Below are positions 5,888 through 59,879 of a DNA stretch of 64,000 bases, one piece after another. This DNA is from Heterodontus francisci. Taxonomy: Eukaryota. Position 1 is the first letter of the stretch. Each line of letters begins with the position of its first letter. The DNA lies in NCBI RefSeq assembly GCF_036365525.1, contig NC_090378.1:61271833-61335832 (forward strand). Reading direction: 5' to 3'. The position numbers and the translations under genes are program-made. The notes under the pieces are model-generated. The model saw only the letters and a program-made list of their open reading frames with translations, was not told the DNA's origin and did no database searches.

Positions 5888-6259
5888 AGACATTCACGGA
5901 GAAGACTCGAAGGGCGGAGTTCCAGACCGTTAAGTATAAAAAACTGACCTCGGGGATTGGCGGCCTACATTCACGGAGAAGACTCGGAGGGCGGAGTTCC
6001 AGACCGGTAAATATAAAAAACTTACCTCTGGTAAAAAAAACTAAAAAGTGACATCACAGGAAAGCTGTGACCTGATTGGCTGGTAGGGAATTTGTACTGA
6101 ATTTGAAAATAAAACATTGGTAAAAATTGATTAAAACCCTAATTAACTAATTGATAAGTAGAGTAACTTAACCAGAGGGAGGAGATTACTGTATTTAGTT
6201 AGCATTTAATATTTATAGTAGAAATCTAGCACTAGGGACCATATAGTTAATTATAACAA

Positions 6260-7550: not shown

Positions 7551-7621
7551 GTAAGGATTTAATAAGTATTTATTTATTTTATATAAATTAACTAATTAGT
7601 GCTAGAAATGACAGTTAGAGG

Positions 7622-8530
7622 GTGAAGTGCTTCACCTGTGAGATGTGGGAAGTCCGTGACGCTTCCAGCGTTCCGGACGACTACATCTGCAGGAAGTGTA
7701 ACCAGTTGCAGCTCCTCACAGACCGCATGGATCGGTTGGAGCGGCAACTGGATGCACTTAGGAGCATGCAAGTGCCAGAAAGTGTCATAGACAGGAGTTT
7801 TAGAGAAGTGGTTACACCCAAGGTGCAGGCAGATAGATGGGTGACCGCTAGAAGGGGCAGGCAGTCAGTGCAGGAATCCCCTGTGGCTATCCCCCTCTCT
7901 AACAAGTATACCGTTTTGGATACTGTTGCGGGGGATGGCCTATCAGGGGAAAACAGCAGCAGCCAGAGCAGTGGCACCACGGCTGGCACTGTTGTTCAGC
8001 AGGGAGGGACAAAACGCAGAAGAGCAATAGTTATAGGGGACTCTATAGTCAGGGGCACAGATAGGCGCTTCTGTGGACGTGAAAGAGACTCCAGGATGAT
8101 ATGTTGCCTCCCTGGTGCCAAGGTCAAGGATGTCTCTGAACGGACAGGGGGCATTCTGAAAGGGGAGGGTGAACAGCCAGAGGTTGTGGTACACATCGGT
8201 ACCAACGATATAGGCAGGAAGAGTGATGAGGTCCTGCAGGGGGAGTTTAGGGAGTTAGGTAGAAAGCTAAAAAACAGGACCTCGAGGGTTGTAATCTTGG
8301 GATTACTCCCTGTGCTACGTGCCAGTGAGGCTAGAAATAGAAAGATAGTGCAGCTAAACACGTGGCTGAACAGCTGGTGTAGAAGGGAGGGTTTCAGATA
8401 TCTGGACCATTGGGATCTCTTCAGGGACAGATGGGACCTGTACAAGAAGGATGGGTTGCATCTAAACTGGAGGGGCACAAATATCCTGGCTGCGAGGATT
8501 GCTAGCGTCACTCGGGAGGGTTTAAACTAG
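7622..8530 (+). CDS. CR1 ORF1p: N-terminal CxxC..CxxC zinc finger, coiled coil, SGNH/GDSL esterase domain (likely ATG at 7608 is 1 nt out of frame in this copy)
   Basis: Motifs CFTCEMWE...CRKC, IVIGDSIVRG, VHIGTNDIG and DGLHLN; ends REGLN*. Confidence 0.88.
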   Translation: MKCFTCEMWEVRDASSVPDDYICRKCNQLQLLTDRMDRLERQLDALRSMQVPESVIDRSFREVVTPKVQADRWVTARRGRQSVQESPVAIPLSNKYTVLDTVAGDGLSGENSSSQSSGTTAGTVVQQGGTKRRRAIVIGDSIVRGTDRRFCGRERDSRMICCLPGAKVKDVSERTGGILKGEGEQPEVVVHIGTNDIGRKSDEVLQGEFRELGRKLKNRTSRVVILGLLPVLRASEARNRKIVQLNTWLNSWCRREGFRYLDHWDLFRDRWDLYKKDGLHLNWRGTNILAARIASVTREGLN

Positions 8531-15575: not shown

Positions 15576-16667
15576 AGGCTACATAGCACAACTGCACACT
15601 AGACTTAGCGACTGAGCCTTTAAAGGCACATCATTTGCATCTTTAAAAAAAAATCCATAGATTCTGCAACAACATATTCCTGATGTGTACAACTCCACGT
15701 AACAAGAAATCGAACTTTCATTCATGGTCAGCTTTCTCAAGCTTATAATTATGGTCCCTAGTTCTTTGCTCCTGGTTCCACACAAAGAATTCCTTAGCTT
15801 TCAGCACAACAAATCCCTTCATACTTTAAAAAACATTGCATCATATCCTTCAGTATGGTACGACAGTTCAAAGCTGCCAATTTGTAGGTTTTTTTGTCAT
15901 TTAATTTAGTAGCTCCATACAACCAAATATGGAGAGCTTACTGCATGATACACTGTTGTAGGTCATTTTTATCAATACTGGGAAAAATTAACCACCAGTT
16001 ACTCCCAAAGCAAGCAAACTGTAAAACTCCAAAAATCAGTTAGGAAATATACACATCAACAGGTTTAGATGCATGCTCCACAGTTTGTAGAAGTTTTCTC
16101 CTGGCATTGGTTGAGTGTTGTTTTGTTGTTTTGTTTTCTTAACACAAAGACCTAACAGACTCCAAGCAACAGTAGCTAAGCTGCAGATTTTCACATCACC
16201 TGACTGACTACTTACACCAGATTAGTGGATGGCAAATACAAAGGTTTGGCTCACAGGAGAAAAAAGTGACTTTTTGATGGTTTAATGCTCAAGATCTGAT
16301 GAAATTGCTCAAATATTTATTGTGCAGGCCAAACTGAACACGTTTGCCAAAGTTTTTGATGTCATTATTGTGTCGGAATAAAGCAACTAACCTTGTTGCT
16401 ATGGTGTGTGGCAGTTAACGATTCATTCAGGGATTAGGACTCATTTTACAAGTTGAAATCTTGCTGCGCTGCCCTAGCCTCTGTGGACTCTATTTTAAGG
16501 CTAAGTTACATCAGCCTTAATGATGATTGACCTTCAGCCATGGAAAGGAGTGTATATTTAATGAAGTGAAGTGACTTTTATTGTTTCGAGATTTGAAAAT
16601 TACCAGAAAAAGGTTTCTGCTGACAATCAACTTATTTCTTAATCAGTACGCATGTCAATGTGACACG

Positions 16668-18899
16668 ATGCCCATAAATGGTACCGGTATTTTTACAAAT
16701 CCATATGCAATTGAGGTTCTACAAAGCAAGAAAAAGGAACTGGTAGCAGGAATTATCAACACTGATCGTCTTCTGGACTGGTTGGTTGAGAATCGTATAA
16801 TTTCACCAGATAAGAGAATCGCTGTGTCGAACTACAAGACACGGGAGGAAAAGAACTCGAGAGTTCTGGATATCTTGGTATCTTGTGGTGAGAGAGCCTG
16901 CAGACTGTTCTTTTATCCTTGCCTCAAGCATGTGGAACCAGCTCTGTACAATTACATCAGGAGTTATGTTAGTAATGTGTCCAGCACCTTTGGGGATGCC
17001 AGGAGACAGCTAGTGGGATACCTTTTAGAAAGAGATAAGGATGAAATCCCCAGGAATAACCCCAAAACGGCAGAGGAATTCAAAAAGAAGCCACATCAGA
17101 TGCCAAAAACAGCTAGTAGACCTCAACCTGTCCAGGTTGAACTTATTGAACTGTACCATGCTGCAGCATTGGGCGATCTTTCGAGTCTTGATAGAGCTTT
17201 GGGAGACAACAACATAAATGGCACAAATGCTTCTAATGAAACCCTGTTGCACATTGCTGCTGCCCATGGGCATGTTACAATTATTGAATATTTATTAAAT
17301 AAAGGAGCAAAGATAGAAGTGAGGGATAACAAAGGTCAATCACCTCTCCATCGGGCTGCAGAGGAAGGGCACACAGGTGCAGCCAAAATGCTTCTCCAAG
17401 CTGGAGCACATATCTATGCTTTGGATACAGAATCCCGAAGTCCATTGCACTTAGCTGCCCAGAACAATAATTTCTCCATCATGAAGCTGATGTTGAAAGA
17501 AGAAGCCAGAAATGATAAAAGGAAGAAATCTTTTTTGCACATGGCTGCACTCAGAGATGAAAGTAAACTAGCACAAATCATTCTCCAATATGGAGCTCGG
17601 GTTGACTCTAAGGATGAGAAGAACAGAACCCCATTGTTTCATGCTACTTCCCACGGACATCTCAATACTGTGAAGGTACTGCTGGAAACTGGAGCCAAGG
17701 TCGATGTTGATCTAATTCATACAGCATTTAATAGTAATAATCAATTCCTGATTAGGCTGATCTTGGAGCATGGCAGTAAAATTAGCTCTTCTGTCCTGGT
17801 CAGTGCACTCTTTAAAGCAGTTCAGAAAAATCTAGACAGAACTGTGGGCATTATAATTGAACAGGGCATTGACGCCAACACCAGAAATGAAATGCAATAC
17901 ACCCCTTTACTGTTAGCAGCAGAACTTGGCCATGCCGAAACTGTCGAAATCCTTATAAATAAAGGCGCACGTTTAGATGAAAGGACACCTAATATGAACA
18001 GTGCATTACACCTCACGGTCCAGACTGGTTCTGTTTCTGTTGCAAAACTGCTGATTGACCAGGGGATGGATGCAAACATTATTGGCTCTGGTGACCAAAC
18101 ACCCTTGCACGTTGCATCCTTTCATAACCAACCACCAATGATAGAGACTTTGATAGGAGGAGGTTCAAAGGTCAATGCAGTCACTAAGGAAGCAGTTACA
18201 CCCTTACATATCGCTTCACAAAAGGGTAACAAAGATACAGCAGAATGTCTCATCCAGAACAAAGCGGATGTGAATGCCAAAGACAGATACATGAGAACAC
18301 CCTTGCACATGGCTGCTGTAGTTGGAGATGCCTCCATTGCAGAGCTACTTCTGTCAAACCAGGCTGATCCTAATGCAGTAAATAAAGAGAAGAAGACCCC
18401 ACTCCATTTGGCTGCTAATGAGGGTCATTTGGATTTTGTATCTTTGATGTTAACCAGAAGGGCCAAGTTTGCCGTAAAAGATATGGATGGGAATACTCCA
18501 ATGCACTATGCAGCCAGCAATAGCCATAGCATTGTTGTCAAAGCTCTTTTATTGGCTGGAAAAAATAAAAACATAGATGATAAGAATGTTTGGCGGAAAA
18601 CACCATTACATCTAGCAGCAGAGCATAGTCATGAGGGCCTGGTAGAGTTGCTGTTGATCAGTGGAGCTGCCATTAATGCTTTAGACAATACCAAAGACAC
18701 ACCTCTTCATTGTGCTTGCAAATCGGGCAACTTTAACACTGCCCAAAAACTAATCAACTGGTCTCAAGGTGAAAAACCCAAGTTTCACTCAACAAATAGC
18801 TTAAAAAAGACCCCTCTTCAAGTTGCAGAAACTGGAGATACAGATAGCCACCATCAAATAGCAGCATTATTGAAAAAAAAAATGATGTTAACGAGATAA
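16668..18899 (+). CDS. caiap: CARD- and ankyrin-repeat-containing inflammasome adaptor protein (single coding exon, 743 aa)
   Basis: Uninterrupted ORF with an N-terminal CARD-like region (FTNPYAIEVLQSKKKELVAGI..LLDWLVENRII..RVLDILVSCGERACRLF) and about 15-16 ankyrin repeats (TPLHxAA...G...LL..GA.VN). First ATG at 16668 follows a splice acceptor (CTGAC...TTATTTCTTAATCAG, 16646). The architecture matches Caiap described in zebrafish. Confidence 0.88.
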   Translation: MPINGTGIFTNPYAIEVLQSKKKELVAGIINTDRLLDWLVENRIISPDKRIAVSNYKTREEKNSRVLDILVSCGERACRLFFYPCLKHVEPALYNYIRSYVSNVSSTFGDARRQLVGYLLERDKDEIPRNNPKTAEEFKKKPHQMPKTASRPQPVQVELIELYHAAALGDLSSLDRALGDNNINGTNASNETLLHIAAAHGHVTIIEYLLNKGAKIEVRDNKGQSPLHRAAEEGHTGAAKMLLQAGAHIYALDTESRSPLHLAAQNNNFSIMKLMLKEEARNDKRKKSFLHMAALRDESKLAQIILQYGARVDSKDEKNRTPLFHATSHGHLNTVKVLLETGAKVDVDLIHTAFNSNNQFLIRLILEHGSKISSSVLVSALFKAVQKNLDRTVGIIIEQGIDANTRNEMQYTPLLLAAELGHAETVEILINKGARLDERTPNMNSALHLTVQTGSVSVAKLLIDQGMDANIIGSGDQTPLHVASFHNQPPMIETLIGGGSKVNAVTKEAVTPLHIASQKGNKDTAECLIQNKADVNAKDRYMRTPLHMAAVVGDASIAELLLSNQADPNAVNKEKKTPLHLAANEGHLDFVSLMLTRRAKFAVKDMDGNTPMHYAASNSHSIVVKALLLAGKNKNIDDKNVWRKTPLHLAAEHSHEGLVELLLISGAAINALDNTKDTPLHCACKSGNFNTAQKLINWSQGEKPKFHSTNSLKKTPLQVAETGDTDSHHQIAALLKKKMMLTR

Positions 18900-23354: not shown

Positions 23355-24873
23355 TCTTTTTTTTTCTTTTGGGCCTCCTTATCTCGAGAGACAATGGATA
23401 CGCGCCTGGAGGTGGTCAGTGGTTTGTGAAGCAGCGCTGGAGTGGCTATAAAGGCCAATTCTAGAGTGACAGGCTCTTCCACAGGTGCTGCAGAGAAATT
23501 TGTTTGTCGGGGCTGTTGCACAGTTGGCTCTCCCCTTGCGCCTCTGTCTTTTTTCCTGCCAACTACTAAGTCTCTTCGACTTGCCACAATTTAGCCCTGT
23601 CTTTATGGCTGCCCACCAGCTCTGGCGAACGCTGGCAACTGACTCCCACGGCTTGTGATCAATGTCACACGATTTCATGTCGAGTTTGCAGACGTCTTTA
23701 AAGTGGAGACGTGGACGGCCGGTGGGTCTGATACCAGTGGCGAGCTTTTGTGTCTTTGGGGATCTTGCCAACTTCCTTGCGGCTCACATGGCCAAGCCAT
23801 CTCAAGCGCCGCTGACTCAGTAGTGTGTACAAGCTGGGGGTGTTGGCCGCCTCGAGGACTTCTGTGTTGGAGTTACGGTCCTGCCACCTGATGCCAAGTA
23901 ATCTCCGGAGGCAGCGAAGATGGAATGAATTGAGACGTCGCGCTTGGCTGGCATACGTTGTCCAGGCCTCGCTGCCATACAGCAAGGTACTGAGGACACA
24001 GGCCTGATACACTCAGACTTTTGTGTTCCGTGTCAGTGCGCCATTTTCCCACACCCTCTTGGCCAGTCTGGACATAGCAGTGGAAGCCTTACCCATGCGC
24101 TTGTTGATTTCTGCATCTAGAGACAGGTTACTGGTGATAGTTGAGCCTAGGTAGGTGAACTCTTGAACCACTTCCAGAGCGTGGTCGCCAGTATTGATGG
24201 ATGGAGCATTTCTGACGTCCTGCCCCATGATGTTCGTTTTCTTGAGGCTGATGGTTAGGCCAAATTCATTGCAGGCAGCCGCAAACCTGTCGATGAGACT
24301 CTGCAGGCACTCTTCAGTGTGAGATGTTAAAGCAGCATCGTCAGCAAAGAGGAGTTCCCTGATGAGGACTTTCCGTACTTTGGACTTCGCTCTTAGACGG
24401 GCAAGGTTGAACAACCTGCCCCCTGATCTTGTTTGGAGGACTTGTCACGTGAGACTCTTGAGGACTTGAACGCATGTGAAAGCAGCAGGGAGAAGAAAAT
24501 CCCAAAAAGTGTGGGTGCGAGAACACAGCCCTGTTTCACGCCACTCAGGATAGGAAAGGGCTCTGATGAGGAGCCACCATGTTGAATTGTGCCTTTCATA
24601 TTGTCATGGAATGAGGTGATGATACTTAGTAGCTTTGGTGGACATCCGATCTTTTCTAGTAGTCTGAAGAGACCACGTCTGCTGACGAGGTCAAAGGCTT
24701 TGGTGAGATCAATGAAAGCAATGTAGAGGGGCATCTGTTGTTCACGGCATTTCTCCTGATCTGACGAAGGGAGAACAGCATGTCAACGGTCGATCTCTCT
24801 GCACGAAAGCTACACTGTCCCTCAGGGTAGACGCGCTCGGCCAGCTTCTGGAGTCTGTTCAGCGCGACTCGAG
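23355..24873 (-). mobile_element. RTE-clade LINE, 5'-truncated, frameshifted
   Basis: ORF pieces PLYIAFIDLTKAFDLVSR, ELLFADDAAL and CSTCGRACHSRIGLYSH; A-rich tail at ~23355-23370. Confidence 0.92.
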
Positions 24874-27589: not shown

Positions 27590-30500
27590 CTCCTCTGTCT
27601 CCCCGCCCCCCCATTCCCCCACTCCTGTCTTCTCTCCCCCCCACCCCCACTCCTGTCTTTTCTCTCCCCCCCCCCACCCCCACTCCTGTCTTCTCTCCCC
27701 CCCCACCCCCACTCCTGTCTTCTCTCCCCCCCCCACCCCCACTCCTGTCTTCTCTCCCCCCCCCCACCCCCACTCCTGTCTTCTCTCCCCCCCCCACCCC
27801 CACTCCTGTCTTCTCTCCCCCCCCCACCCCCACTCCTGTCTTCTCTCCCCCCCCCCACCCCCACTCCTGTCTTCTCTCCCCCCCCCACCCCCACTCCTGT
27901 CTTCTCTCCCCCCCCCACCCCCACTCCTGTCTTCTCTCCCCCTCCCACCCCCACTCCTGTCTTCTCTCCCCCCCCCCACCCCCACTCCTGTCTTCTCTCC
28001 CCCCCCACCCCCACTCCTGTCTTCTCTCCCCCCCCACCCCCACTCCTGTCTTCTCTCCCCCCCACCCCCACTCCTGTCTTCTCTCCCCCCCCACCCCCAC
28101 TCCTGTCTTCTCTCCCCCCCACCCCCACTCCTGTCTTCTCTCCCCCCCACCCCCACTCCTGTCTTCTCTCCCCCCCCACCCCCACTCCTGTCTTCTCTCC
28201 CCCCCCACCCCCACTCCTGTCTTCTCTCCCCCCCCCAACCCCACTCCTGTCTTCTCTCCCCCCCCCCACCCCCACTCCTGTCTTCTCTCCCCCCCCCCCA
28301 CCCCCACTCCTGTCTTCTCTCCCCCCCCCCCCACCCCCACTCCTGTCTTCTCTCCCCCCCCCCCCACCCCCACTCCTGTCTTCTCTCCCCCCCCCACCCC
28401 CACTCCTGTCTTCTCTCCCCCCCCACCCCCACTCCTGTCTTCTCTCCCCCCCCCACCCCCACTCCTGTCTTCTCTCCCCCCCCACCCCCACTCCTGTCTT
28501 CTCTCCCCCCCCACCCCCACTCCTGTCTTCTCTCCCCCCCCACCCCCACTCCTGTCTTCTCTCCCCCCCCACCCCCACCCCCACTCCTGTCTTCTCTCCC
28601 CCCCCACCCCCACCCCCACTCCTGTCTTCTCTCCCCCCCCACCCCCACTCCTGTCTTCTCTCCCCCCCCCACCCCCACTCCTGTCTTCTCTCCCTCCCCC
28701 ACCCCCACTCCTGTCTTCTCTCCCCCCCCCCCCACCCCCACTCCTGTCTTCTCTCCCCCCCCACCCCCACTCCTGTCTTCTCTCCCCCCCCACCCCCACT
28801 CCTGTCTTCTCTCCCCCCCCACCCCCACTCCTGTCTTCTCTCCCCCCCCACCCCCACTCCTGTCTTCTCTCCCCCCCCACCCCCACTCCTGTCTTCTCTC
28901 CCCCCCCACCCCCACTCCTGTCTTCTCTCCCCCCCCCCCCCCACCCCCACTCCTGTCTTCTCTCCCCCCCCCACCCCCACTCCTGTCTTCTCTCCCCCCC
29001 CCACCCCCACTCCTGTCTTCTCTCCCCCCCCCACCCCCACTCCTGTCTTCTCTCCCCCCCCCACCCCCACTCCTGTCTTCTCTCCCCCCCCCACCCCCAC
29101 TCCTGTCTTCTCTCCCCCCCCCACCCCCACTCCTGTCTTCTCTCCCCCCCCCACCCCCACTCCTGTCTTCTCTCCCCCCCCCACCCCCACTCCTGTCTTC
29201 TCTCCCCCCCCCACCCCCACTCCTGTCTTCTCTCCCCCCCCCACCCCCACTCCTGTCTTCTCTCCCCCCCCCACCCCCACTCCTGTCTTCTCTCCCCCCC
29301 CCACCCCCACTCCTGTCTTCTCTCCCCCCCCCACCCCCACTCCTGTCTTCTCTCCCCCCCCCCACCCCCACTCCTGTCTTCTCTCCCCCCCCCACCCCCA
29401 CTCCTGTCTTCTCTCCCCCCCCCACCCCCACTCCTGTCTTCTCTCCCCCCCCCCACCCCCACTCCTGTCTTCTCTCCCCCCCCACCCCCACTCCTGTCTT
29501 CTCTCCCCCCCCCACCCCCACTGCTGTCTTCTCTCCCCCCCCCCACCCCCACTCCTGTCTTCTCTCCCCCCCCCACCCCCACTCCTGTCTTCTCTCCCCC
29601 CCCCACCCCCACTCCTGTCTTCTCTCCCCCCCCCACCCCCACTCCTGTCTTCTCTCCCCCCCCACCCCCACTCCTGTCTTCTCTCCCCCCCCCCCCACCC
29701 CCACTCCTGTCTTCTCTCCCACCCCCACCCCCACTCCTGTCTTCTCCCCCCACCCCCACCCCTGTCTTCTCTCCCCCCACCCCCACCCCTGTCTTCTCTC
29801 CCCCCACCCCCACCCCTGTCTTCTCTCCCCCCACCCCCACCCCTGTCTTCTCTCCCCCCACCCCCACCCCTGTCTTCTCTCCCCCCACCCCCACCCCTGT
29901 CTTCTCTCCCCCCACCCCCACTCCTGTCTTCTCTCCCCCCACCCCCACTCCTGTCTTCTCTCCCCCCACCCCCACTCCTGTCTTCTCTCCCCCCACCCCC
30001 ACTCCTGTCTTCTCTCCCCCCACCCCCACTCCTGTCTTCTCTCCCCCCACCCCCACTCCTGTCTTCTCTCCCCCCACCCCCACTCCTGTCTTCTCTCCCC
30101 CCACCCCCACTCCTGTCTTCTCTCCCCCCACCCCCACTCCTGTCTTCTCTCCCCCCACCCCCACTCCTGTCTTCTCTCCCCCCACCCCCACTCCTGTCTT
30201 CTCTCCCCCCACCCCCACTCCTGTCTTCTCTCCCCCCACCCCCACTCCTGTCTTCTCTCCCCCCACCCCCACTCCTGTCTTCTCTCCCCCCACCCCCACT
30301 CCTGTCTTCTCTCCCCCCACCCCCACTCCTGTCTTCTCTCCCCCCACCCCCACTCCTGTCTTCTCTCCCCCCACCCCCACTCCTGTCTTCTCTCCCCCCA
30401 CCCCCACTCCTGTCTTCTCTCCCCCCACCCCCACTCCTGTCTTCTCTCCCCCCACCCCCACTCCTGTCTTCTCTCCCCCCACCCCCACTCCTGTCTTCTC

Positions 30501-31137
30501 TCCCCCCACCCCCACTCCTGTCTTCTCTCCCCCCACCCCCACTCCTGTCTTCTCTCCCCCCACCCCCACTCCTGTCTTCTCTCCCCCCCCACCCCCACTC
30601 CTGTCTTCTCTCCCCCCCCACCCCCACTCCTGTCTTCTCTCCCCCCCCACCCCCACTCCTGTCTTCTCTCCCCCCCCACCCCCACTCCTGTCTTCTCTCC
30701 CCCCACCCCCACTCCTGTCTTCTCTCCCCCCCCACCCCCACTCCTGTCTTCTCTCCCCCCCCACCCCCACTCCTGTCTCCTCTCCCCCCACCCCCACCCC
30801 CACCCCCACTCCTGTCTTCTCTTCCTCTCCCCCCACCCCCACCCCCACTCCTGTCTTCTCTTCCTCTCCCCCCACCCCCACCCCCACTCCTGTCTTCTCT
30901 TCCTCTCCCCCCACCCCCACCCCCACTCCTGTCTTCTCTTCCTCTCCCCCCACCCCCACCCCCACTCCTGTCTTCTCTTCCTCTCCCCCCACCCCCACCC
31001 CCACTCCTGTCTTCTCTTCCTCTCCCCCCACCCCCACCCCCACTCCTGTCTTCTCTTCCTCTCCCCCCCCCCCCACCCCCACTCCTGTCTTCTCTTCCCC
31101 CCCCCCACCCCCACCCCCACTCCTGTCTTCTCTTTCC
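27590..31137. repeat. ~3.5-kb C-rich minisatellite (27-39-bp units) in intron 1 of the ISY1-like gene
   Basis: Unit CCCCACTCCTGTCTTCTCT(C)nA with variable C-run and homogeneous sub-blocks of 30, 27 and 39 bp. Confidence 0.97.
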
Positions 31138-38074: not shown

Positions 38075-38160
38075 GTGCGCGTTACCACTGAATTCCTGCA
38101 GGACGGAAGTGCCGGGCTGATGTGGGAAATGACGTTGATGCTGGTGCAATATGGCGGAGG
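38075..38160 (+). promoter_or_regulatory. MYSM1 core promoter / 5' UTR
   Basis: CpG-enriched, with an ETS/GABP-type CGGAAGTG (38104-38111), a TGACGT half-CRE, and a YY1-like AATATGGCGG overlapping the ATG. Confidence 0.55.
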
Positions 38161-38206
38161 AGGTGGATGTTGATATTGAAGGAGATGGAGCCGAACTGAG
38201 TTTGGG
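38151..38206 (+). CDS. MYSM1: Deubiquitinase MYSM1, coding exon 1 (MAEEVDVDIEGDGAELSLG)
   Basis: Matches the MYSM1 N-terminus as recalled (MAAEEADVDIEGD); donor GG|GTAAGA, phase 2. Confidence 0.92.
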
Positions 38207-38605
38207 GTAAGAGGTGGTCCTGGGGTTGTGGGTGGAGTTGAGGCGCTGCTTCCCGAGTCTCATGGACTAGAGGGAGAGGCCAGAAGCTTTGGCCTGTTTT
38301 TAACAGCTGGAAGCCGAGTTGGGGCAGCGGCAGGCTGCAGCTGCGATGGGATCCGCCTGGGTTTGTTTATTTCTCGCTGCTTGTGCAAAATGAAATGTTC
38401 TGTCATTCGGTCATTTCACTCTGGTTTCTGAAAAATTCATATACCAGTGTAAGCAGCAGCTTTTGCATTTGAGAATAAGGCGGCATACGTTGCAGCCTTA
38501 TTAAAATAAATTTAATGTTTTCAACAGTCAAACCTACAGGAAGAGGTTTGGATTTTCCCAAAGTGTTTCGCAGCCGATGAAGTCCTTCTGAATTGTAGGT
38601 TTTGT

Positions 38606-39308
38606 ATAGAATCATACATCGCAGAAGGAGGCCATTCGGCCCATCGAATCTGCACTGGTACTTTCAAAGAACAATCCAGTTAGTCCCACTTCCCCGCTTT
38701 TTCCTCATATCCCTGTAATTTTTCCAGTTTCCTTTTAAAGGCTATTGAACCTGTATCCACCACCCTATCGGGCAGTGCATTCCAAATCCTAAATACTTGT
38801 TGCATAAAGTTTTTCCTCATGTTGCCTCTGGTTCTTTTTTCAGTTATCTTGCATCTGTCTTCTTTGCTTATTGATCCTTCAGTCACTGGAAACAGTATCT
38901 CTGTATTTTATCTAAACCCTTCATGATTTTAAACATCTCTATCAAATCTCCTTTTAGCCATCTATGCTGTCAGGAGAACAAGCCCAGCTTCTCTATCTGG
39001 TGACTGTAATCCCTCATCCCTGCAGTCATTCTAGTAAATCTCTTCTGTACTCTCTTCATAGCCCTCTCATCCTTCCTAAAGTGTGGCACCCAGAATTGGG
39101 CAGAATAGTAGAAAATTTCCCATTAAAAGAACAGATATATAAATGAACAAATTTAACAAGATATGTAAGCAGATATAAGACTTTTAATACATTACAAATC
39201 AATTGCCTTGGATAGAACAGAGCTTTTAAGTAAATACCTTAATTAGAGCAAACCATACATATCTGCCTTTCACAGTTTTCCTCTGACAAATACTGTGGTA
39301 AAAGGAAA
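38606..39308 (-). repeat. Inverted copy of MYSM1 exon 5 + intron 5 start + CR1 3' end (source ~58263-58982)
   Basis: 39263-39292 is the reverse complement of exon 5 with 2 mismatches. Similarity continues through unique intron sequence and the CR1 tail. Confidence 0.9.
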
Positions 39309-39310
39309 TC

Positions 39311-39590
39311 CGGCAGCCAACTTGCCTACTTCGAGTTCCTACAAAAAACAATCATTTAATGATGAGATGCTCAGTTTTTGGTGGTGGCTGAGGAGTAAAT
39401 ATTGGCCAGGATAACAGGAGAACTGCTATTCTTTCAAGAACGCGATGGGATCATTTATGTCCATTTAAGAGAGCATACAGTGCCGCATTTCATCTGACTG
39501 TGGAGGACAGAATTGATGGTTCATGTGCTCAAGGCCCAGGTCATTCTTGAACCCTTTTGACTCAAGCAAAAGTGCTATCGCTCAGCCAAG
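39311..39590 (-). mobile_element. Deu-domain SINE fragment
   Basis: Reverse-complement similarity to 60700-61090. Confidence 0.6.
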
Positions 39591-39709
39591 GGTAAAGGTC
39601 AGAAAGCAAGCAAGGGAATGAAATATGGCAGTAAGTTCAAAGCATAATTAGTAGATAATACACCTCTATTGCACTTCAATATATTTCAGAATACATAGCT
39701 GACACAAGA

Positions 39710-40648
39710 AATGACCTTCCTTCAATCATAAGGTCAGAAGTGGAGATGTTCGCTGATGATTGCACAATGTTCAGCACCATTCGCAACTCCTCAAATACTG
39801 AAGCAGTCCGTGCAGAAATGCAGCAAGACCTGGACAATATCCAGGCTTGGGCTGATAAGTGGCAAGTAACATTTGTGCCACACAAGTGCCAGGCAATGAC
39901 CATCTCCAACAAGAGAGAATCTAACCATCTCCCCTTGACATTCAATGGCATTACTATCGGTGAATCCCCCACTATCAACATCCTAGGGGCTACCATTGAC
40001 CAGAAACTGAACTGGAGTAGCCATATAAATACCGTGGCTACAAGAGCAGGTCAGAGGCTAGGAATCCTGAGGCGAGTAACTCACCTTGTGACTCCCCAAA
40101 GCCTGTCTGCCATCTACAAGGCACAAGTCAGGAGTGTGATGGAATACTGTCCACTTGCCTGGATGGGTGCAGCTCCAACAACACTCAAGAAGCTCGACAC
40201 CATCCAGGACAAAGCAGCCCGCTTGATTGGCACACCATCCACAAACATTCACTCCCTCCACCACTGACGCACAGTGGCAGCAGTGTGTACCATCTACAAG
40301 ATGCACTGCAGCAACGCACCAAGGCTCCTTAAACAGCACCTTCCAAACCCGCGATCTCTACCACTTCGAAGGACAAGAGCAGCAGATGCATGGGAACATC
40401 ACCAACTACAAGTTCCCATCCAAGTCACACACCATCCTGACTTGGAACTATATCGCCATTCCTTCACTGTCGCTGGGTCAAAATCCTGGAACTCCCTTCC
40501 TAACAGCACTGTGGGTATACCTACCTCACATGGATTGTAGCGATTCAAGAAGGCAGCTCACCACCACCTTCTCAAGGGCAATTAGGGATGGGCAATAAAT
40601 GCTGGCATAGCCAGTGATGCCCACATCCCATGAATGAATAAAAAAAAA
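39710..40648 (+). mobile_element. 5'-truncated LINE (CR1/L2 superfamily) RT C-terminus and 3' UTR
   Basis: MFADDCTMF, QQDLDNIQAWADKWQVTF and YKAQVRSVMEY; tail CCCATGAATGAATAAAAAAAAA. Confidence 0.85.
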
Positions 40649-41699: not shown

Positions 41700-42140
41700 G
41701 TCAGCCCTGTGCTTGCTGACCTACATTGGCTCCCATTTATGCAACACCTTGATTCTAAAATGTTCATCCTTGTTTTCAAATCCCTCCATGGCCTCGCCCA
41801 CCCCTATCTCTGTAATCGCCTCCAGCCCTAGAAACCTCTGAGATATCTAGGCTCTTCCAATTCTGGCCTTTTGAACACCTCCAATTTTAATCGCTTCACC
41901 ATTGGCAGCCATGCCTTCAGCTGCCAAGGCCCTAAGTTCTGGAATTCCCTCCCTAAACCTTTCCGCCTCTCTCCCCTCCTTTAAGATGCTCCTTAAAACC
42001 TACATCATTAATCAAGCTTTTGGTTAACTCCCCTAATATCTCCTTATGTGACTCAGTGTCCAGTTTTGTTTGATAACACTCCTGTGAAGTTCCTTGAGAC
42101 ATTTTACTATGTTAAAGGTGCTATATAAATACAAGTTGTT
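41700..42140 (+). mobile_element. L2-clade LINE 3' end
   Basis: GCTGACCTACATTGGCTCCC ... AAAGGTGCTATATAAATACAAGTTGTT. Confidence 0.78.
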
Positions 42141-44282: not shown

Positions 44283-45831
44283 TCCTCCACGCAAGATCAG
44301 GTGGCAGGTTGTTCAACCTTGCCCGTCTAAGAGCAAAGACCAAAGTACGGAAAGTCCTCATCAGGGAACTCCTCTTTGCTGACGATGCCATCATACATTC
44401 CTCTGATGTTTCCGGTGTCAGATACAGGAGAAATGCCTCGAACAACAGATGCCCCTCTACGTTGCTTTCATTGATCTCACCAAAGCCTTTGACCTCGTCA
44501 GCAGACATGGTCTCTTCAGACTACTAGAAAAGATCGGATGTCCACCAAAGCTACTAAGTATCATTACCTCATTCCATGACAATATGAAAGGCACAATTCA
44601 GCATAGCGGCACCTCATCAGAGCCCTTTCCTATCCTGAGTGGCGTGAAACAGGGCTGTGTTCTCGCACCTACACTGTTTGGGATTTTCTTCTCCCTGCTG
44701 CTCTCACATGCGTTCAAGTCTTCAGAAGAAGGAATTTTGCTCCACACAAGATCAGGTGGCAGGTTGTTCAACCTTGCCTGTCTAAGAGCGAAGACCAAAG
44801 TACGGAAAGTCCTCATCAGGGAACTCCTCTTTGCTGACGATGCTGCTTTAACATCTCACACTGAAGAGTGTCTGCAGAGTCTCATCGACAGGTTTGCGGC
44901 TGCCTGCAATGAATTTGGCCTAACCATCAGCCTCAAGAAAACGAACATCATGGGACAGGACGTCAGTAATGCTCCATCCATCAATATCGGCGACCACGCT
45001 CTGGAAGTGGTTCAGGAGTTCACCTACCTAGGCTCAACTATCACCAGTAACCTGTCTCTCGATGCAGAAATCAACAAGCGCATGGGAAAGGCTTCCACTG
45101 CTATGTCCAGACTGGCCAAGAGAGTGTGGGAAAATGGCGCACTGACACGGAACACAAAAGTCCAAGTGTATCAAGCCTGTGTCCTCAGTACCTTGCTCTA
45201 CGGCAGTGAGGCCTGGACAACGTATGTCAGCCAAGGGCGGCGTCTCAATTCATTCCATCTTCGCTACCTCCGGAGAATCCTTGGTATCAGGTGGCAGGAC
45301 CGTATCTCCAACACAGAAGTCCTCGAGGTGGCCAACATCCCCAGCATATACACACTACTGAGTCAGCGGCGCTTGAGCCAGCTTGGCCATGTGAGCCGCA
45401 TGGAAGATGGCAGGATCCCCAAGGACACATTGTACAGCGAGCTCGTCACTGGTATCAGACCCTTCGGCCATCCATGTCTCCGCTTTAAAGACGTCTGCAA
45501 ACGCAACCTGAAGTCCTGTGACATTGATCACAAGTCGTGGGAGTCAGTTGCCAGCGATCGCCAGAGCTGGCGGGCAGCCATAAAGGCGGGGCTAAAGTGT
45601 GGCGAGTCGAAGAGACTTAGCAGTTGGCAGGAAAAAAGACAGAAGTGCAAGGGGAGAGCCAACTGTGTAATAGCCCCGACAACCAATTTTATCTGTAGCA
45701 CCTGTGGAAGAGTCTGTCACTCTAGAATTGGCCTTTATAGCCACTCCAGGCGCTGCTTCACAATCCACTGACCACCTCCAGGCGCATACCCATTGTCTCT
45801 CGAGACAAGGAGGCCAAAGAAGAAAAAGAAG
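44283..45831 (+). mobile_element. RTE-clade LINE, 5'-truncated and 5'-rearranged, inserted in CR1
   Basis: Open 440-aa RT C-terminal ORF (44449-45771) ending CSTCGRVCHSRIGLYSHSRRC; TSD AACCTTTT at 44275-44282 and 45832-45839. Confidence 0.93.
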
Positions 45832-49160: not shown

Positions 49161-49239
49161 TGAGGACAGTGGCACAGTTCCTGGTTTCCTGCAGGACCAT
49201 TACCTGGATTCCTCCTGGAGGAGTAACAATGGTTTTTTG
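49161..49239 (+). CDS. MYSM1: MYSM1 coding exon 2 (EDSGTVPGFLQDHYLDSSWRSNNGFL)
   Basis: DHYLDSSWR motif; acceptor TTTTTGTTTTAAG and donor GTAAGT; 79 nt, phase 2 to 0. Confidence 0.93.
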
Positions 49240-50749: not shown

Positions 50750-50820
50750 TCCTGGACTTTGGATAGCTCTCTCAGTGAAGAGAATAGAGCAGCTATTGAG
50801 AAGATGTTGCAGGAGGAAGA
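50750..50820 (+). CDS. MYSM1: MYSM1 coding exon 3 (SWTLDSSLSEENRAAIEKMLQEE-)
   Basis: Matches the MYSM1 segment PWTLDNTISEENRAVIEKML as recalled; strong acceptor and U12-type donor. Confidence 0.94.
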
Positions 50821-52347
50821 GTATCCTTTTTATTGGTGGCGTTATTGTACAGATTCATTATCACTGGAGTCAGATGCCGTTATGTTAGCTGATAATTTTC
50901 CTTTGATACAATACAGCTTCTCCATCACTCCAATTTCAAAATTTGTCTTTCTCGACTTTCAAACTTTGTCTTCCTCTGCTTTGCCTTTGTACCTAATGAC
51001 TCGTGATCCTAAATAATTTCAGCCACCGTCTAAATTCCCTCTTCCCCAGTTTCCCATTCTTCTGTCCTCACTTAATTTCACCCTGCACGTCAACTCTGCA
51101 TTTCCATGACCACCCTCCTGACCTCACTATTAGATGTGATCTTGGCATCTCTAAGGTCTGTGCCATTGTTACTAGTTACTTCTGAGCACTTCCACATCTC
51201 TCTTGCTTCCAAAACCCTTTTTCTGCCCCACCCCACTACCATCACGCTGCTCTGTTGGGAAAAACTATCTGCTAACCCCTCTCCAGCTCTCAACTCCCTC
51301 TTTTTTGGCCCTCCATCCACTAAGGTGCTGCTATCTCCTTTCATCTCTCAGCAGCTTGACACTGCTTCTTACACCATCACCAACCAAGTTGGTTTCCTGT
51401 ACAAAACCTGAGAGCCACAGGCTTGAGTGCAGATGGTGCATTAATGCCCAAACTGGCATTAGAAGATCTGGAAGATCATGAGAAAAATGGTCTCTCCCTC
51501 TGTAGCCAAATCATCATTTTACTCTAAATTATTTTTTGTAAGCAAGGGTAATCCCAAACTCTATTCCTGCATTACAGATTATCTCCTTCAAGTTCCCAAA
51601 GTTCTCACAGTATTTACTCCTGCAAGTTGTTCCACATATTGGCCCTGCTATGAAATGATGAGGTAATGAAGCTGGAGGCAAGTGGAATTTATTTCCAGGA
51701 CAAATAGCCACAGTATATTGAGAAACAGGGTTCATGTTTCAGGTCAATTTTGAAAGGTCATTGGCCTGAAACATTAACTATCTCTCTCTACAGATACTAC
51801 CTGACCTGCTGAGTATTTCCAGCATTTTCTGTTTTTATTTCAGATTTCCCATATCTGCAGTATTTTGCTTTTGTCTTCAGTATATTGGTTGGTTTGTCAA
51901 CTGGCTTCCTGCCTCTTGTTATATCTTCTAAAGAACAATTTGACAATCATGGTCTTATTTTCTGTTTTCTTTATCCTTATCGGTTTTCTCCCTCCTTTTT
52001 CTGAAGAGGTTGACTCCTTTCTCGCAGTACCGTTCCATGGACACTATTGTCCACCAGTACTTCACTCAAGTGATTATTCTTGATGTGTAAGTCTGGACAG
52101 TGAGTATTCTCAGGCAATTTCACCATTAGGGGCATTGTAGCCAGGTTCAATCCTGTGCACCCATATTTCCAACAGGAATTTCTGGATAGCATTCTAAGGT
52201 TGAGCACCCTGGTTAACTTACTCCTGCCTAACCCAAGAGCATCAAGACTAATTTATCACCTCTAGTTGGTTCTAGTTGGAATCAGCTATCTCAGCGCAGA
52301 CTGTAACTCTCTTTTTTGACTATATTTGTCCCTTAACCATTTGATAG
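50821..52347 (+). other. MYSM1: U12-type (minor spliceosome) GT-AG intron 3 of MYSM1
   Basis: 5' splice site GTATCCTTT; branch point CCCTTAAC at 52330-52337, ~10 nt before the AG (52346-52347), with no polypyrimidine tract. Confidence 0.92.
51735..51875. mobile_element. Short Penelope-terminus derivative
   Basis: TGAAAGGTCATTGGCCTGAAACATTAAC...GACCTGCTGAGTATTTCCAGCATTTTCTG, as in the 3' end of 178-2064. Confidence 0.7.
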
Positions 52348-52425
52348 GTACTACCTAACAGGGAAAAAACATCCACAAAGCAGCTGGTCTGATCACCAAG
52401 AGAGAGAGAAAATACCTGTGAAAAG
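52348..52425 (+). CDS. MYSM1: MYSM1 coding exon 4 (-EYYLTGKKHPQSSWSDHQEREKIPVK-)
   Basis: Completes EEEYYL; donor AG|GTGAAT; 78 nt, phase 2 to 2. Confidence 0.9.
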
Positions 52426-53029: not shown

Positions 53030-53830
53030 CCAACAACTTGGATTTATATAGCACCTTTAACATAAAAGGTCCTAAGGTGCTTCACAGCAGCATTATTAAA
53101 CAAAATATGACACCGAGCCACAAAAGGAGATGTTAGGTCAGATGACCAAAAGCTTGGTCAAAGAAGTAGGTTTTAAGGAGTGTCGTATAAAGGAGGACAG
53201 TGAGGTGGAGATGTGTAGGGAGGGTATTCCAGAGCTTGGGACCTGGTAACTGAAGGCACTTCCACCAATGGTGGAGCAATTAAAATCAGGGATGCACAAA
53301 AGGGCAGAATTAGAGGAGCGCAGATATCTAGGAGGGTTGTGGAGCTGGAGGAGATTACAGAGATAAGGAGGGGCGAGGCCATAGAAGGATTTGAAAACAT
53401 GGAGGAAAATTTTAAAATCAAGGCGTTGCACGACCGGGAGCCAACGGAGGTCAGCAAGCACAGGGGTCATAGGGGAACGGGACAGGGTGCAAAGTAAGAC
53501 ACAGGCAACAGAGGTTTGGATGACCTCAAGTTTACAAAGAGTAGAATGTGGGAGGCCAGCAAAGAGTGCTTTGGAATAGTCAAGTCTCGAAGTAATGAAG
53601 GTGTGAATGAGGGTTTCAGCAGTAGATGAGCTGAGACGGGGTGAAGTCAGGTGATGTTACGGGAAATAGGCGATCTTAGTGACGGCACGAGTATGAGGTC
53701 AGAAGCTCATTTCAGGGCCAAATATGACACCAAGGTTGCGAACAGACTGGCTTAACCTCAGACTGTTACCAGGGCGAGGGATGGGGTTGGTAGCCAGGGA
53801 ATGGAGTTTGGACCAGGGACCGAAAACAGT
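53030..53830 (-). mobile_element. L2-clade LINE 3' part
   Basis: ORF 53138-53470 reads TPVLADLRWLPVVQRLDFKI..FKSFYGLAPPYL. Confidence 0.85.
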
Positions 53831-56964: not shown

Positions 56965-58281
56965 CATGTCTCTATCTTCAGCAATAATCAAGTTGTGTAC
57001 GACTAAATGACTAATTGTAGTTTTATACTATTCTCCCCTACTTCATTAGCTCACTAGTAATCTATATGTCAAAGATGCATTTTGTGTGCCTGTAAATCAT
57101 TTGGTTAGTACTCGCTGTTGCTTCTTGTAATTGAACATTTTCTTCTAAGTTAAAATTGTTCTGTTACTTGTATAAGCAGCAGAATGTTAGGCTCACTGTG
57201 CACTGGAACGTTTATTAAAAAATCAATCTTTGGATGTAGGCAACAACCTCTCATATGGGCAACATCTTCTATAAAGGTCAGTGTTTAATTAAAAAGGGAA
57301 ATCATTACAACTTCAACTGATACATGTCAGTGAGTGGCTAAAGGTGAGTACTTACTGGCAACCTTGCCATCAAGGGACTGTCACCAGTCAAAAATTCAGT
57401 AGCTGATGGTACAGTTCCACAATGGGGGCTGCTTACTTGCTGACCAGCCATATATAAATCTCTCTTTTTGACTGAGATCTGTATGACATGCTACTAGTGA
57501 GAGGAGGAAAACAGCGATTTCACCAGTTAGATTAGTGAGCTACTTAAATATTTATTTCTTACCTCCACCAACCTTATATGGATGTGTACTTCATTTTAAA
57601 ACTCTTCAGGAGTGTTTGTTTATCTATGCAAAAGTATCATTCTACTTCATACCCATATAAAATCGACTCAAAAAAAATCACTTTACTGGAAACTTTAAAA
57701 CTCATACAACTGAGATTAGCATAGGGACAGTAACGTAAAAAAAAATGTTGTGAAAGTTAAATCCTGTGAAATTGCAGCATCAGTGGATATTTTGAATTTT
57801 GTTCTTGTGGGGTAAAATACTTTAGTTAGTTTAGGAGAAACGTTTGGCTAGGCTGCACAATGACAGGTCATCAACGTTTGTGTGCTAAATCAGAGTGGCT
57901 GATGTAGACCCTTTGAGTTCCTGATCTCACCCATGCGACCCTTAAAAGGTGCTAAATGGAGGCCAACTAGTTCTGCAGAACAAGACTAAGACATTTAGTA
58001 CTGCTTTCACCCATCTCATTGTAGCTGGTTTCAGAGCTTGCAGTAAGGGAGGAGAAGGCCTATTAAATTATCAGCAGTTAAATGATGGATTTTGATGTAA
58101 AAACATGCTAACATTTCATTAGGAAAAAACACCAATTGCAACTGAAATTTTGATTGGTTACAGAAATAATAAATGCTCTACTTAATTGTTAAGCTAATAA
58201 TTTACTACTTTGTTTTCTTGTTGCAAATACTGTTTATTTTCTTGCCTGTACGCATTGACTTTTTTTCCTGTTTTTACACAG

Positions 58282-58311
58282 TATTCGTCAGAGGAAAGCT
58301 GTGAAAGGCAG
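58282..58311 (+). CDS. MYSM1: MYSM1 coding exon 5 (30-nt microexon, -SIRQRKAVKG-); gene continues beyond the window
   Basis: Strong acceptor (TTGAC TTTTTTTCCTGTTTTTACACAG) and donor AG|GTATGT; phase 2 to 2 fits exon 4. The SANT-domain exon was not found within the window. Confidence 0.75.
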
Positions 58312-58454
58312 GTATGTATGGTTTGCTCTAATTAATGTATTTATTTAAAAGCTCTGTTCTATCCAAGGCAATTGTCTTATATCTGCTTACATATCTTGTG
58401 AAATTTGTTCATTTATATATCTATTCTTTTAATGAGAAATTTTCTTCTATTGTG

Positions 58455-58985
58455 CAAAATTCTGGGTGCCACACTTTAGGAAGGATGAGAGGGCTTTGGA
58501 GAGAGTACAGAAGAGATCTACTAGAATGACTGCAAGGATGAGGGATTACAGTCACCAGATAGACTAGAGAAGCTGGGGTTGTTCTCCCGAGAGCAAAGAC
58601 GGCTAAGAGGAAATTTGATAGAGATGTTTAAAATCATGAAGGGTTTAGATAAAATACAGAAACGCTGTTTCCAGTAACTGAAGGATCGATAACCAGAGAG
58701 GACAGATGAAAGGTAACTGGCAAAAGAACCAGAGGCAACAAGGAAAAACTTTTTTATGCAACAAGTGGTTAGGATTTGGAATGTACTGCCTGATAGGACG
58801 ATGGATACATGTTCAATAGTAGCCTTCAAAAAGAAACTGGATAAATACTTGAAGGAGAAAAATTACAGGGATATGGGGAAAGAGCGGGGAAGTGGGACTA
58901 ACTGAATTGCTCTTTGAAAGAGCTAGTGCAAACTTGATGGACCGAATCGCCACCTCCTGTGCTGTACTATTCTGTGATTCTAAAT
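58455..58985 (+). mobile_element. CR1 3'-end fragment
   Basis: TTCTGGGTGCCACACTTTAGGAAGGATG...GAGAAGCTGGGGTTGTTCTCC...TGTACTATTCTGTGATTCT. Confidence 0.8.
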
Positions 58986-59879
58986 TGGTAATTCTCAAGT
59001 CCTTGCCCTATAAATGTTAAATGAGTGCAAGTATTTCACTGATATGTTCGTCTAGTCTAAATCAGATTATTGTAAATACAACTTGATCTCCCATAGCACT
59101 ATACATGAGGAATTAAGAACAACTGTTGTTTTAAGGAGAAACCAGGTCCATGTCTGGGGATAAGTGGGCATGAGGACACAGATGTAATTCAGTCCTCAAT
59201 TAAAAGATTGTGCATTCTGTGGATGTATGAATTCACAGTGGGAAATTTGACAGAAAATGCAAGCAGATGTCAATTTTTTTTTTATTTGTAGTCAATCACC
59301 TATGGCATTGCACACCTGAAGTCAAGACCAAATGTAGATTTTAGGGGAAGTGGTCTTAAAAGTAGAGTGCATAGATGTAATTCAATCTCCCTTTTAAAGT
59401 CACATGTTATACTTTTAATTTCATTATAATTTTCCATACCCACATTTATAATGCAAACTGTCTATGTAAACTTGTCACGTTGCCATTATACCTTTCTGCC
59501 AGTGATGATGCTTCAGTGGGAGGGGGCGTTTGGGGGGAGGAGAAGTGAGAGGGATGGAGCAGCAGGTGGGGAGGAATGGTTAGAGGAGCAGAGAAGGGGA
59601 GGATACAATGGTTGAACTTATAGTTCATAAAGGAAGATGTGAAGGGGGAGTAATCTTAATTTTCACCTCTTTGGCATAATTTCTTCCCCTTTCCTCTTCT
59701 CTCCATCTCTTCGTTCTCCCCACCTCTTCCCCTCTCTGTCTTATCCCTCCCTTCTCTCCTCCATGTCATCCTTTCCTCTCAACTACCTCTACTTCCTCCT
59801 CCTGTTTCCCCTTTTCCCTTCCTCTTACCCATCTCCCTTTTCCCTGTAGGATGTATGTATGTTTAGCATTTGAACTGGC

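What the first reader, a model, noticed from the sequence alone, without database searches (positions are those of the whole stretch)
38606..39308. MYSM1 intron 1 carries an antisense copy of its own exon 5, adjacent intron and CR1 tail
Seen: 38606-39308 is an inverted, diverged copy of ~58263-58982. It includes the acceptor, the 30-nt exon 5 (28/30 identical, 39263-39292), the donor mutated GT>AT, ~150 nt of unique intron and the CR1 3' end. Inference on origin: unspliced MYSM1 pre-mRNA ending in a CR1 tail was retrotransposed back into the gene, or a local inverted duplication occurred. Inference on effect: the pre-mRNA can form a ~700-bp imperfect duplex across ~19 kb that covers both exon 5 splice sites and loops out exons 2-4. 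Exons 2-4 (228 nt) and 2-5 (258 nt) are both frame-preserving if skipped. This geometry favours exon skipping, circRNA formation and A-to-I editing.
Basis: partly seen in the sequence, partly recalled or inferred. Interest (0 to 1): 0.7.

Follow-up and report, generated by a model that had tools for sequence, protein, structure and literature searches.

The report
Intronic CR1 stub retrocopied MYSM1 twice
A shark gene carries a backwards copy of one of its own exons in its first intron, one of two copies that end at the same dead retrotransposon tail and were likely made when the retrotransposon's enzyme copied the gene's unfinished RNA; the gene's main mRNA still includes the exon.

Summary
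Window 38606-39302 (-) is a copy of MYSM1 exon 5, 137 nt of intron 5 and a CR1 3' stub (58270-58982), about 11% diverged. Exon 5 is real: conserved in sharks, rays and chimaera and spliced in RNA contigs. The host part is no dispersed repeat: 3 places in 6 Gb. The third, on another contig, starts later, ends at the same CR1 tail and has a 6-bp flanking direct repeat. The intron-1 copy splits a tRNA-headed SINE. A tree puts the two copies at different times. So origin by CR1-tail-primed reverse transcription of unspliced RNA is likely (0.8). Both 5' ends lie at splicing landmarks (just after intron 4's predicted branch point; just inside intron 5's start), hinting at lariat templates (noticed after the fact). 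The proposed splicing effect is unsupported: main contigs join exons 3-4-5 in 4 of 4 runs, the copy shows no sign of selection for pairing, and exon-5 skipping is already annotated in five other sharks. Rare skipping, circles and editing could not be tested. This scan reported the same mechanism earlier on other DNA (ITM2B, TPCN1, a calcium-pump gene).

The parts
38151..38206 (+). MYSM1 exon 1, coding part
   Evidence: Spliced translation aligns with shark MYSM1
38556..38605 (-). 3' remainder of the tRNA-headed SINE split by the insertion
   Evidence: Aligns to positions 427-469 of the majority sequence of 19 family copies
38606..39106 (-). Copied CR1 3' stub, ending in the CR1 tail microsatellite
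   Evidence: Best genome match of the intron-5 stub, 577 bits against 487 for the next; sister to it with support 0.998
39107..39262 (-). Copied start of intron 5, donor changed GT>AT; keeps a 19-nt segment since lost from the parent
39263..39292 (-). Antisense copy of exon 5, 28 of 30 identical
39293..39302 (-). Copied acceptor AG and end of the pyrimidine tract; 5' end of the copy
39303..39605 (-). 5' part of the split SINE; its last 5-6 letters also match the parent's pyrimidine tract (microhomology)
   Evidence: Aligns to positions 48-409 of the family majority; joined flanks align across the junction to 2 intact copies
49161..49239 (+). Exon 2
50750..50820 (+). Exon 3, followed by a U12-type donor (consensus recalled)
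52348..52425 (+). Exon 4
58258..58258 (+). Predicted branch-point A of intron 4 (-24); the intron-1 copy starts 6-12 nt 3' of it
   Evidence: Best of a simple motif score; predicted only
58282..58311 (+). Exon 5 (parent)
   Evidence: Conserved peptide; follows exon 4 in 4 of 4 RNA contigs
58312..58448 (+). Non-repeat start of intron 5; the C17 copy starts at 58314-58318
58449..58982 (+). Sense-oriented, 5'-truncated CR1 stub in intron 5: the handle
   Evidence: 15,711 first-look candidates in the genome; matches the end of an RT frame at 10996-11066; tail ATTCTGTG-ATTCT fits the CR1 microsatellite AUUCURUG (PMC5729268)

Best explanation
The inverted piece in intron 1 is likely a retro-insertion: a CR1 reverse transcriptase would have recognised the dead CR1 tail inside unspliced MYSM1 RNA, copied back past the stub through exon 5, and pasted the product antisense into a SINE in intron 1, where it is probably a decaying relic. 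Shown: a 534-nt CR1 stub sits in sense in intron 5; two copies carry host sequence plus that stub; both stop at the CR1 tail; their 5' ends differ; one splits a SINE, the other has a 6-bp direct repeat; they branch from the parent at different depths; the main mRNA contigs include exons 2-5. Inferred: RNA intermediate, action of a CR1 enzyme in trans, priming inside a longer RNA or at a trimmed 3' end, and microhomology joining at the 5' ends. More tentative (about 0.4): the templates were splicing intermediates, so copying stopped at 2'-5' branches. Predicted: little or no effect on splicing.
For: Host part at exactly 3 places in 6.01 Gb by one DNA search and three patterns, reversed controls 0. 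Sequence 5' of 58270 is not copied, and nothing directly 3' of the tail is. Both copies end in the CR1 tail. Joined flanks of the intron-1 copy rebuild one SINE with at most 1 duplicated base or a loss of about 5. C17 copy flanked by AATGCA; 39 of 3000 random junction pairs reach 6 or more. TSD peaks of 3-5 bp for L2/CR1 clades, blunt joins, truncations and 5' microhomology are described in PMC4245944 (passages). Tree (C17,(parent,intron-1)); parent and intron-1 share 17 derived substitutions plus 3 gap columns that C17 lacks, all three share 10 plus 2, intron-1 and C17 share 0. 5' ends at +3..+7 of intron 5 and 6-12 nt after the predicted branch A; rough chance for both 0.009 to 0.0004 for spans of 200-1000 nt. 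For neutrality: private changes 35 in the copy against 23 in the parent over 619 columns, host-to-CR1 ratios not significantly different in any lineage; 20 wobble-keeping against 23 pair-breaking transitions; exon 3-4-5 joins in 4 of 4 runs.
Against: No splice junction lies inside either copy, so RNA origin is inferred from ends only. The intron-1 copy has no clear TSD. The C17 direct repeat overlaps letters that also fit the parent on both sides, so it may be partly chance. Support for C17 joining the parent clade is 0.84 only, and C17 shares 11 derived states with the parent against 0-8 for 28 ordinary family copies; its link rests mainly on the shared host piece and junction. Landing 19 kb from the source inside the same gene is what a local DNA event would also give. 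The splice-landmark test was defined after seeing the data and the branch point is predicted. No empty site from another species was obtained.
Confidence: 0.78

Rival explanations
1. DNA-level templated insertion (replication template switch or break repair) copied the segment locally in inverted orientation; the C17 copy is a separate DNA event.
For: Source and copy are 19 kb apart; microhomology at the 5' junction; no clear TSD. The scan has read other inverted intron copies in this genome this way (unchecked notes).
Against: Two independent events would both have to end at the CR1 tail microsatellite and both start at splice landmarks; the C17 copy is on another contig.
Confidence: 0.12
2. 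Same origin as the best explanation, but the copy now works as a splicing switch: a ~700-bp duplex hides both exon 5 splice sites and promotes skipping, back-splicing of exons 2-4 or A-to-I editing in some tissues.
For: Predicted duplex -1013 kcal/mol, -250 for the host part alone; third strongest of 32 inverted pairs and the only one covering an exon. Skips are in frame. Inverted Alu duplexes promote skipping over more than 1 kb (PMC13019944, passages). Contigs drop rare forms.
Against: One contig per run, each joining exon 3-4-5 (4 of 4) and exon 2-3 (3 of 3). No bias towards pair-keeping changes. Exon-5 skipping is annotated in five other shark species, so it needs no such copy unless they carry it too. 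Pairing needs intron 1 still unspliced when exon 5 is transcribed 9 kb after exon 2 (inference).
Confidence: 0.17
3. Template switch: the enzyme began on an active CR1 RNA and jumped onto MYSM1 pre-mRNA at the homologous stub, so the stub's own tail was not the primer site.
For: Template switching by CR1 RT is proposed for bird SINEs (PMC5729268, passages). The last 90 nt hold no high-confidence shared derived site.
Against: Derived states shared by parent and intron-1 copy run from 58455 to 58890, and the three copies share letters near 58925 that the family majority lacks, so any switch was within the last ~50 nt.
Confidence: 0.1

Closest known systems
5' transduction by SVA and L1 (PMC12593883, passages read)
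   Same: Host sequence upstream of an element is co-mobilised from an upstream host transcript and ends at the element's 3' end; several copies can share one source.
   Different: Here the element is a 534-nt dead CR1 stub with no promoter or ORF, there is no poly(A) tail, the cargo is unspliced, and CR1 is a stringent-type LINE.
CR1/L2-tailed SINEs and stringent 3'-tail recognition (PMC3747384, PMC4176376, PMC5729268; passages read)
   Same: A non-coding RNA borrows the LINE enzyme through a shared 3' tail with hairpin and microsatellite.
   Different: The head is Pol II intron/exon sequence, not tRNA or 5S; only two copies were found; the tail is internal to an 8.2-kb intron.
Processed and partly processed retrocopies made by L1 (PMC5470649, passages read)
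   Same: RNA-derived, 5'-truncated gene-fragment copy.
   Different: No intron loss, no poly(A), no long TSD. That review states CR1's sequence-specific recognition limits host RNA copying; these copies would be the exception that the rule allows.
Inverted-Alu loop-out exon skipping (PMC13019944 passages; TBXT paper PMC10901737 seen in the search listing only)
   Same: Inverted arms in different introns can pair around exons.
   Different: One arm covers the exon and both its splice sites; arms are 19 kb apart; no skipping is shown here.

Membership tests
CR1-mobilised (TPRT) insertion | 3' end at the CR1 tail microsatellite | tested here: met
   Both copies; nothing directly downstream is copied
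CR1-mobilised (TPRT) insertion | Variable 5' truncation | tested here: met
   5' ends at parent 58264-58270 and 58314-58318
CR1-mobilised (TPRT) insertion | Short TSD, blunt join or small target loss | tested here: inconclusive
   C17 6 bp, chance about 0.013; intron-1 copy 0-1 bp or about 5 lost
CR1-mobilised (TPRT) insertion | Identifiable pre-insertion site | tested here: met
   Intron-1 copy splits a SINE; by paralogues, not by an orthologous empty site; C17 flanks matched nothing held
CR1-mobilised (TPRT) insertion | Mobilisation by the CR1 enzyme in trans | not testable with these tools
   Needs a retrotransposition assay
Processed retrocopy (L1 type) | Introns removed | tested here: not met
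   Acceptor, donor site and intron kept
Processed retrocopy (L1 type) | Poly(A) tail and 13-15 bp TSD | tested here: not met
SINE family | Pol III head and many copies | tested here: not met
   Host head, 3 places
Duplex-driven exon skipping / circRNA | Complementary arms around or over exons | tested here: met
Duplex-driven exon skipping / circRNA | Skipped or back-spliced products in RNA | tested here: inconclusive
   Only inclusion contigs seen; contigs drop rare forms
Duplex-driven exon skipping / circRNA | A-to-I editing in the arms | not testable with these tools
   Only contigs available, and repeat-derived contigs swamp the parent arm
Duplex-driven exon skipping / circRNA | Dependence on the arm (deletion test) | not testable with these tools
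   Needs a minigene

The most novel reading that the evidence does not exclude
The two copies are DNA fossils of splicing intermediates. A CR1 enzyme primed on a dead intronic tail and stopped at 2'-5' branches: once at the start of excised intron 5, once at the branch point of intron 4 in a lariat-exon 5 intermediate. Dead CR1 stubs would then be long-lived, reusable handles that let a stringent LINE copy nuclear pre-mRNA, and their 5' ends would map ancient branch points across CR1-rich genomes.
Probability: 0.35. Interest if true: 0.72.

Novelty: new variant of a known kind. Interest (0 to 1): 0.46.

Why it matters
CR1 is held to copy almost only RNAs with its own tail, the standard reason given for few retrocopies in CR1-dominated genomes. 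Introns in this genome are full of sense CR1 tails. If these serve as handles long after the stub has died, CR1 can duplicate exons with their splice sites and can drop them antisense into the source gene. One stub used twice at different times shows the handle lasts. The splice-landmark ends give a cheap genome-wide test of where and on what RNA the enzyme acts.

Tried and rejected
Dispersed-repeat reading of the host part: rejected (counts are lower bounds for more diverged copies). Exon 5 as an exonised repeat: rejected, peptide conserved to chimaera. ADAR-edited template: no A>G excess among private changes (intron-1 4 A>G, 11 G>A; C17 13 and 14). C17 copy derived from the intron-1 copy or the reverse: 0 shared derived states. 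Run search: no holder is on record as RNA; X5-X8 and X10 are guessed RNA, though their contigs skip introns where DNA run X1 does not. Editing and rare isoforms: one search was swamped by repeats (822 joints and 3156 loose ends not shown), non-repeat intron cover was near zero, and exon 1-to-5 or 1-to-6 joins were not covered by either call; no verdict. Presence of the copy in relatives: not tested, both read-laying runs went to splicing. Independent test of the splice-landmark idea on the ITM2B case: three ITM2-like exons found but the retrocopies were not located (queried a different BRICHOS gene); dropped. Suh 2015 (J Mol Evol) is not held; seen only as a citation. Ten paper searches listed no paper whose title or abstract start describes an intronic CR1 stub copying host pre-mRNA; most were seen as listings only, subscription journals are missing and no supplements were read.

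Full report
Setting. The window lies at G000:C8:61271833-61335832 in a 6.01-Gb assembly. The large downstream exon matches shark MYSM1 at 71-84% identity and ray MYSM1 at 61-68%, so this is a shark MYSM1 on the + strand. Exons 1-5 lie in the window; exons 6 and 7 lie 2.6 and 8 kb beyond its end.

Observation. The inverted match is real: 84.4% over 724 columns, 10.8% differences without gaps. It holds the acceptor, exon 5 at 28 of 30, the donor changed to AT, the start of intron 5 and a CR1 3' end. Exon 5 is a true exon. Of 48 cartilaginous-fish MYSM1 proteins examined, 40 carry its peptide (39 by motif, 1 by eye), 3 lack the whole region, and 5 lack exactly these 10 residues. Those 5 are annotated isoforms of Heptranchias perlo, Scyliorhinus torazame, Hemiscyllium ocellatum and two Chiloscyllium species.

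Copy number. One DNA search and three pattern searches with 1-2 mismatches each return the same 3 places: the parent, the intron-1 copy and G000:C17:21904829-21906075 (-); reversed patterns give 0. A search with 58060-58315 finds only the intron-1 copy, from 58272 on. A search with 58975-59330 finds two weak hits well away from the tail and none adjoining it. So the copied unit runs from host sequence to the CR1 tail and no further.

The handle. 58449-58982 belongs to a large family (15,711 first-look candidates), matches the end of an RT reading frame elsewhere in the window and ends in the ATTCTRTG-type microsatellite described for CR1 (PMC5729268, passages). Most of the 28 family copies fetched continue upstream as CR1; the three MYSM1-type places instead share one host-CR1 junction.

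Insertion sites. The flanks of the intron-1 copy, joined in a script, align across the junction to two intact repeats nearby. Against the majority of 19 family copies, the left flank covers positions 48-409, with a tRNA-like head, and the right flank 427-469. The copy therefore landed inside a SINE, with at most one duplicated base or about five lost, and with 5-6 letters of microhomology to the parent's pyrimidine tract. The name DeuSINE/SacSINE1 for this family is recalled, not tested. The C17 copy is flanked by AATGCA on both sides; 39 of 3000 random junction pairs do as well, but some of these letters also fit the parent. It was later interrupted by a 564-nt insert. Short TSDs, blunt joins, target truncation and 5' microhomology are described for L2/CR1-clade inserts (PMC4245944, passages).

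Order of events. In a tree of the three CR1 parts and 28 family copies, parent and intron-1 copy are sisters (0.998) and C17 joins them at 0.84. K2P distances: parent to intron-1 0.117, parent to C17 0.183, intron-1 to C17 0.221. Family copies lie 0.126 from their majority on average. The C17 copy thus left soon after the stub inserted, the intron-1 copy at about half that age, and the parent later lost a 19-nt segment that both copies keep. The intron-1 copy shares with the parent a glycine codon at the end of exon 5 where the other sharks and rays aligned have serine, threonine or asparagine, which suggests a lineage-specific event; one other site points the other way, so this is weak.

5' ends. 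The C17 copy starts 3-7 nt into intron 5. The intron-1 copy starts 6-12 nt after the best branch-point motif of intron 4 (A at 58258). Reverse transcriptases stall at 2'-5' branches (established knowledge, recalled), so excised intron 5 and a lariat-exon 5 intermediate are natural templates. A rough chance for both ends is 0.009 to 0.0004 for truncation spans of 200 to 1000 nt. The target zones were chosen after seeing the data and n is 2, so this is a lead. A DNA-level event has no reason to respect either the CR1 tail or splice landmarks.

Effect on splicing. The arms could pair (-1013 kcal/mol; -250 for the host part). Among 32 inverted pairs of 100 or more columns between exon 1 and 36 kb beyond the window's end, this is third by score and the only one covering an exon; another pair (41705-42140 with 53032-53465) loops the same exons 2-4 over 10.9 kb. 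RNA contigs argue against a strong effect: exon 2 joins exon 3 in X5, X6 and X8 and not in DNA run X1; at exon 4 each of X5, X7, X8 and X10 has a single contig with exon 3 before and exon 5 after, and 205-229 letters upstream, in line with exons 1-3. These are one sample of this organism and one of a close relative, RNA status is guessed, and contigs drop rare forms. Sequence change looks neutral: 35 private changes in the copy against 23 in the parent over 619 columns, no significant host-versus-CR1 difference in any lineage including C17, which cannot pair in cis, several deletions, and 20 wobble-keeping against 23 pair-breaking transitions. Parent and intron-1 copy differ less in the host part (6.2%) than in the CR1 part (12.4%), but the parent-C17 pair shows the same trend (10.8% and 17.3%).

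Comparison with what is known. It works like 5' transduction (PMC12593883, passages) and like a CR1-tailed SINE (PMC3747384, PMC4176376, passages), but is a member of neither: the element is a dead stub, the head is pre-mRNA, and there are two copies. It fails the tests for an L1-type processed retrocopy. A review states that CR1's recognition of its own sequence limits host RNA copying (PMC5470649, passages). My ten searches listed no paper on this route, within the limits given under Tried and rejected.

Earlier notes of this scan. My reading was recorded before the first look-up. Three unchecked notes describe the same mechanism on other DNA: ITM2B in this genome, TPCN1 and a self-inserted calcium-pump copy in other genomes. 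They are not independent evidence, and the mechanism is not new to the scan. A word search for branch point or lariat templates found no note.

Verdict. Real feature; origin likely CR1-tail-driven copying of unspliced RNA, twice from one stub; regulatory effect unsupported. New variant of a known kind, interest 0.46.

Noticed in passing
window 50821-52347: Intron 3 has a U12-type donor (GTATCCTTT) and a U12-like branch sequence 9-17 nt before the acceptor (consensus recalled). One paper holds MYSM1, minor intron and U12 together (listing only).
   Followed up: partly
P0001, P0130, P0132, P0133, P0136: Clean exon-5-skipped MYSM1 isoforms in five shark species of three orders; the exon encodes a basic stretch just before the SANT/Myb domain that could act in nuclear import or DNA binding (speculation).
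   Followed up: partly
window 16575-18899 (+): 774-residue uninterrupted frame with an N-terminal CARD and many ankyrin repeats upstream of MYSM1.
   Followed up: partly
window 7619-11318 (+): Near full-length LINE with a GDSL esterase frame followed by RT frames broken into pieces; 6247-7464, 23358-24765 and 44407-45771 are 92-95% identical copies of another RT element.
   Followed up: partly
window 27595-31134: 3.5-kb C-rich minisatellite, 27-39-nt units, about 110 copies.
   Followed up: no
G000:C17:21904829-21906075, L003: 564-nt insert with degenerate inverted ends and a 3-bp duplication inside the C17 copy, MITE-like.
   Followed up: partly
window 39710-40646 and 44653-45830: Two inverted repeat pairs stronger than the finding's (90-92% over 0.9-1.2 kb) with partners 5.7 and 18.7 kb beyond the window's end, looping exons 2-6 or 2-8.
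   Followed up: no
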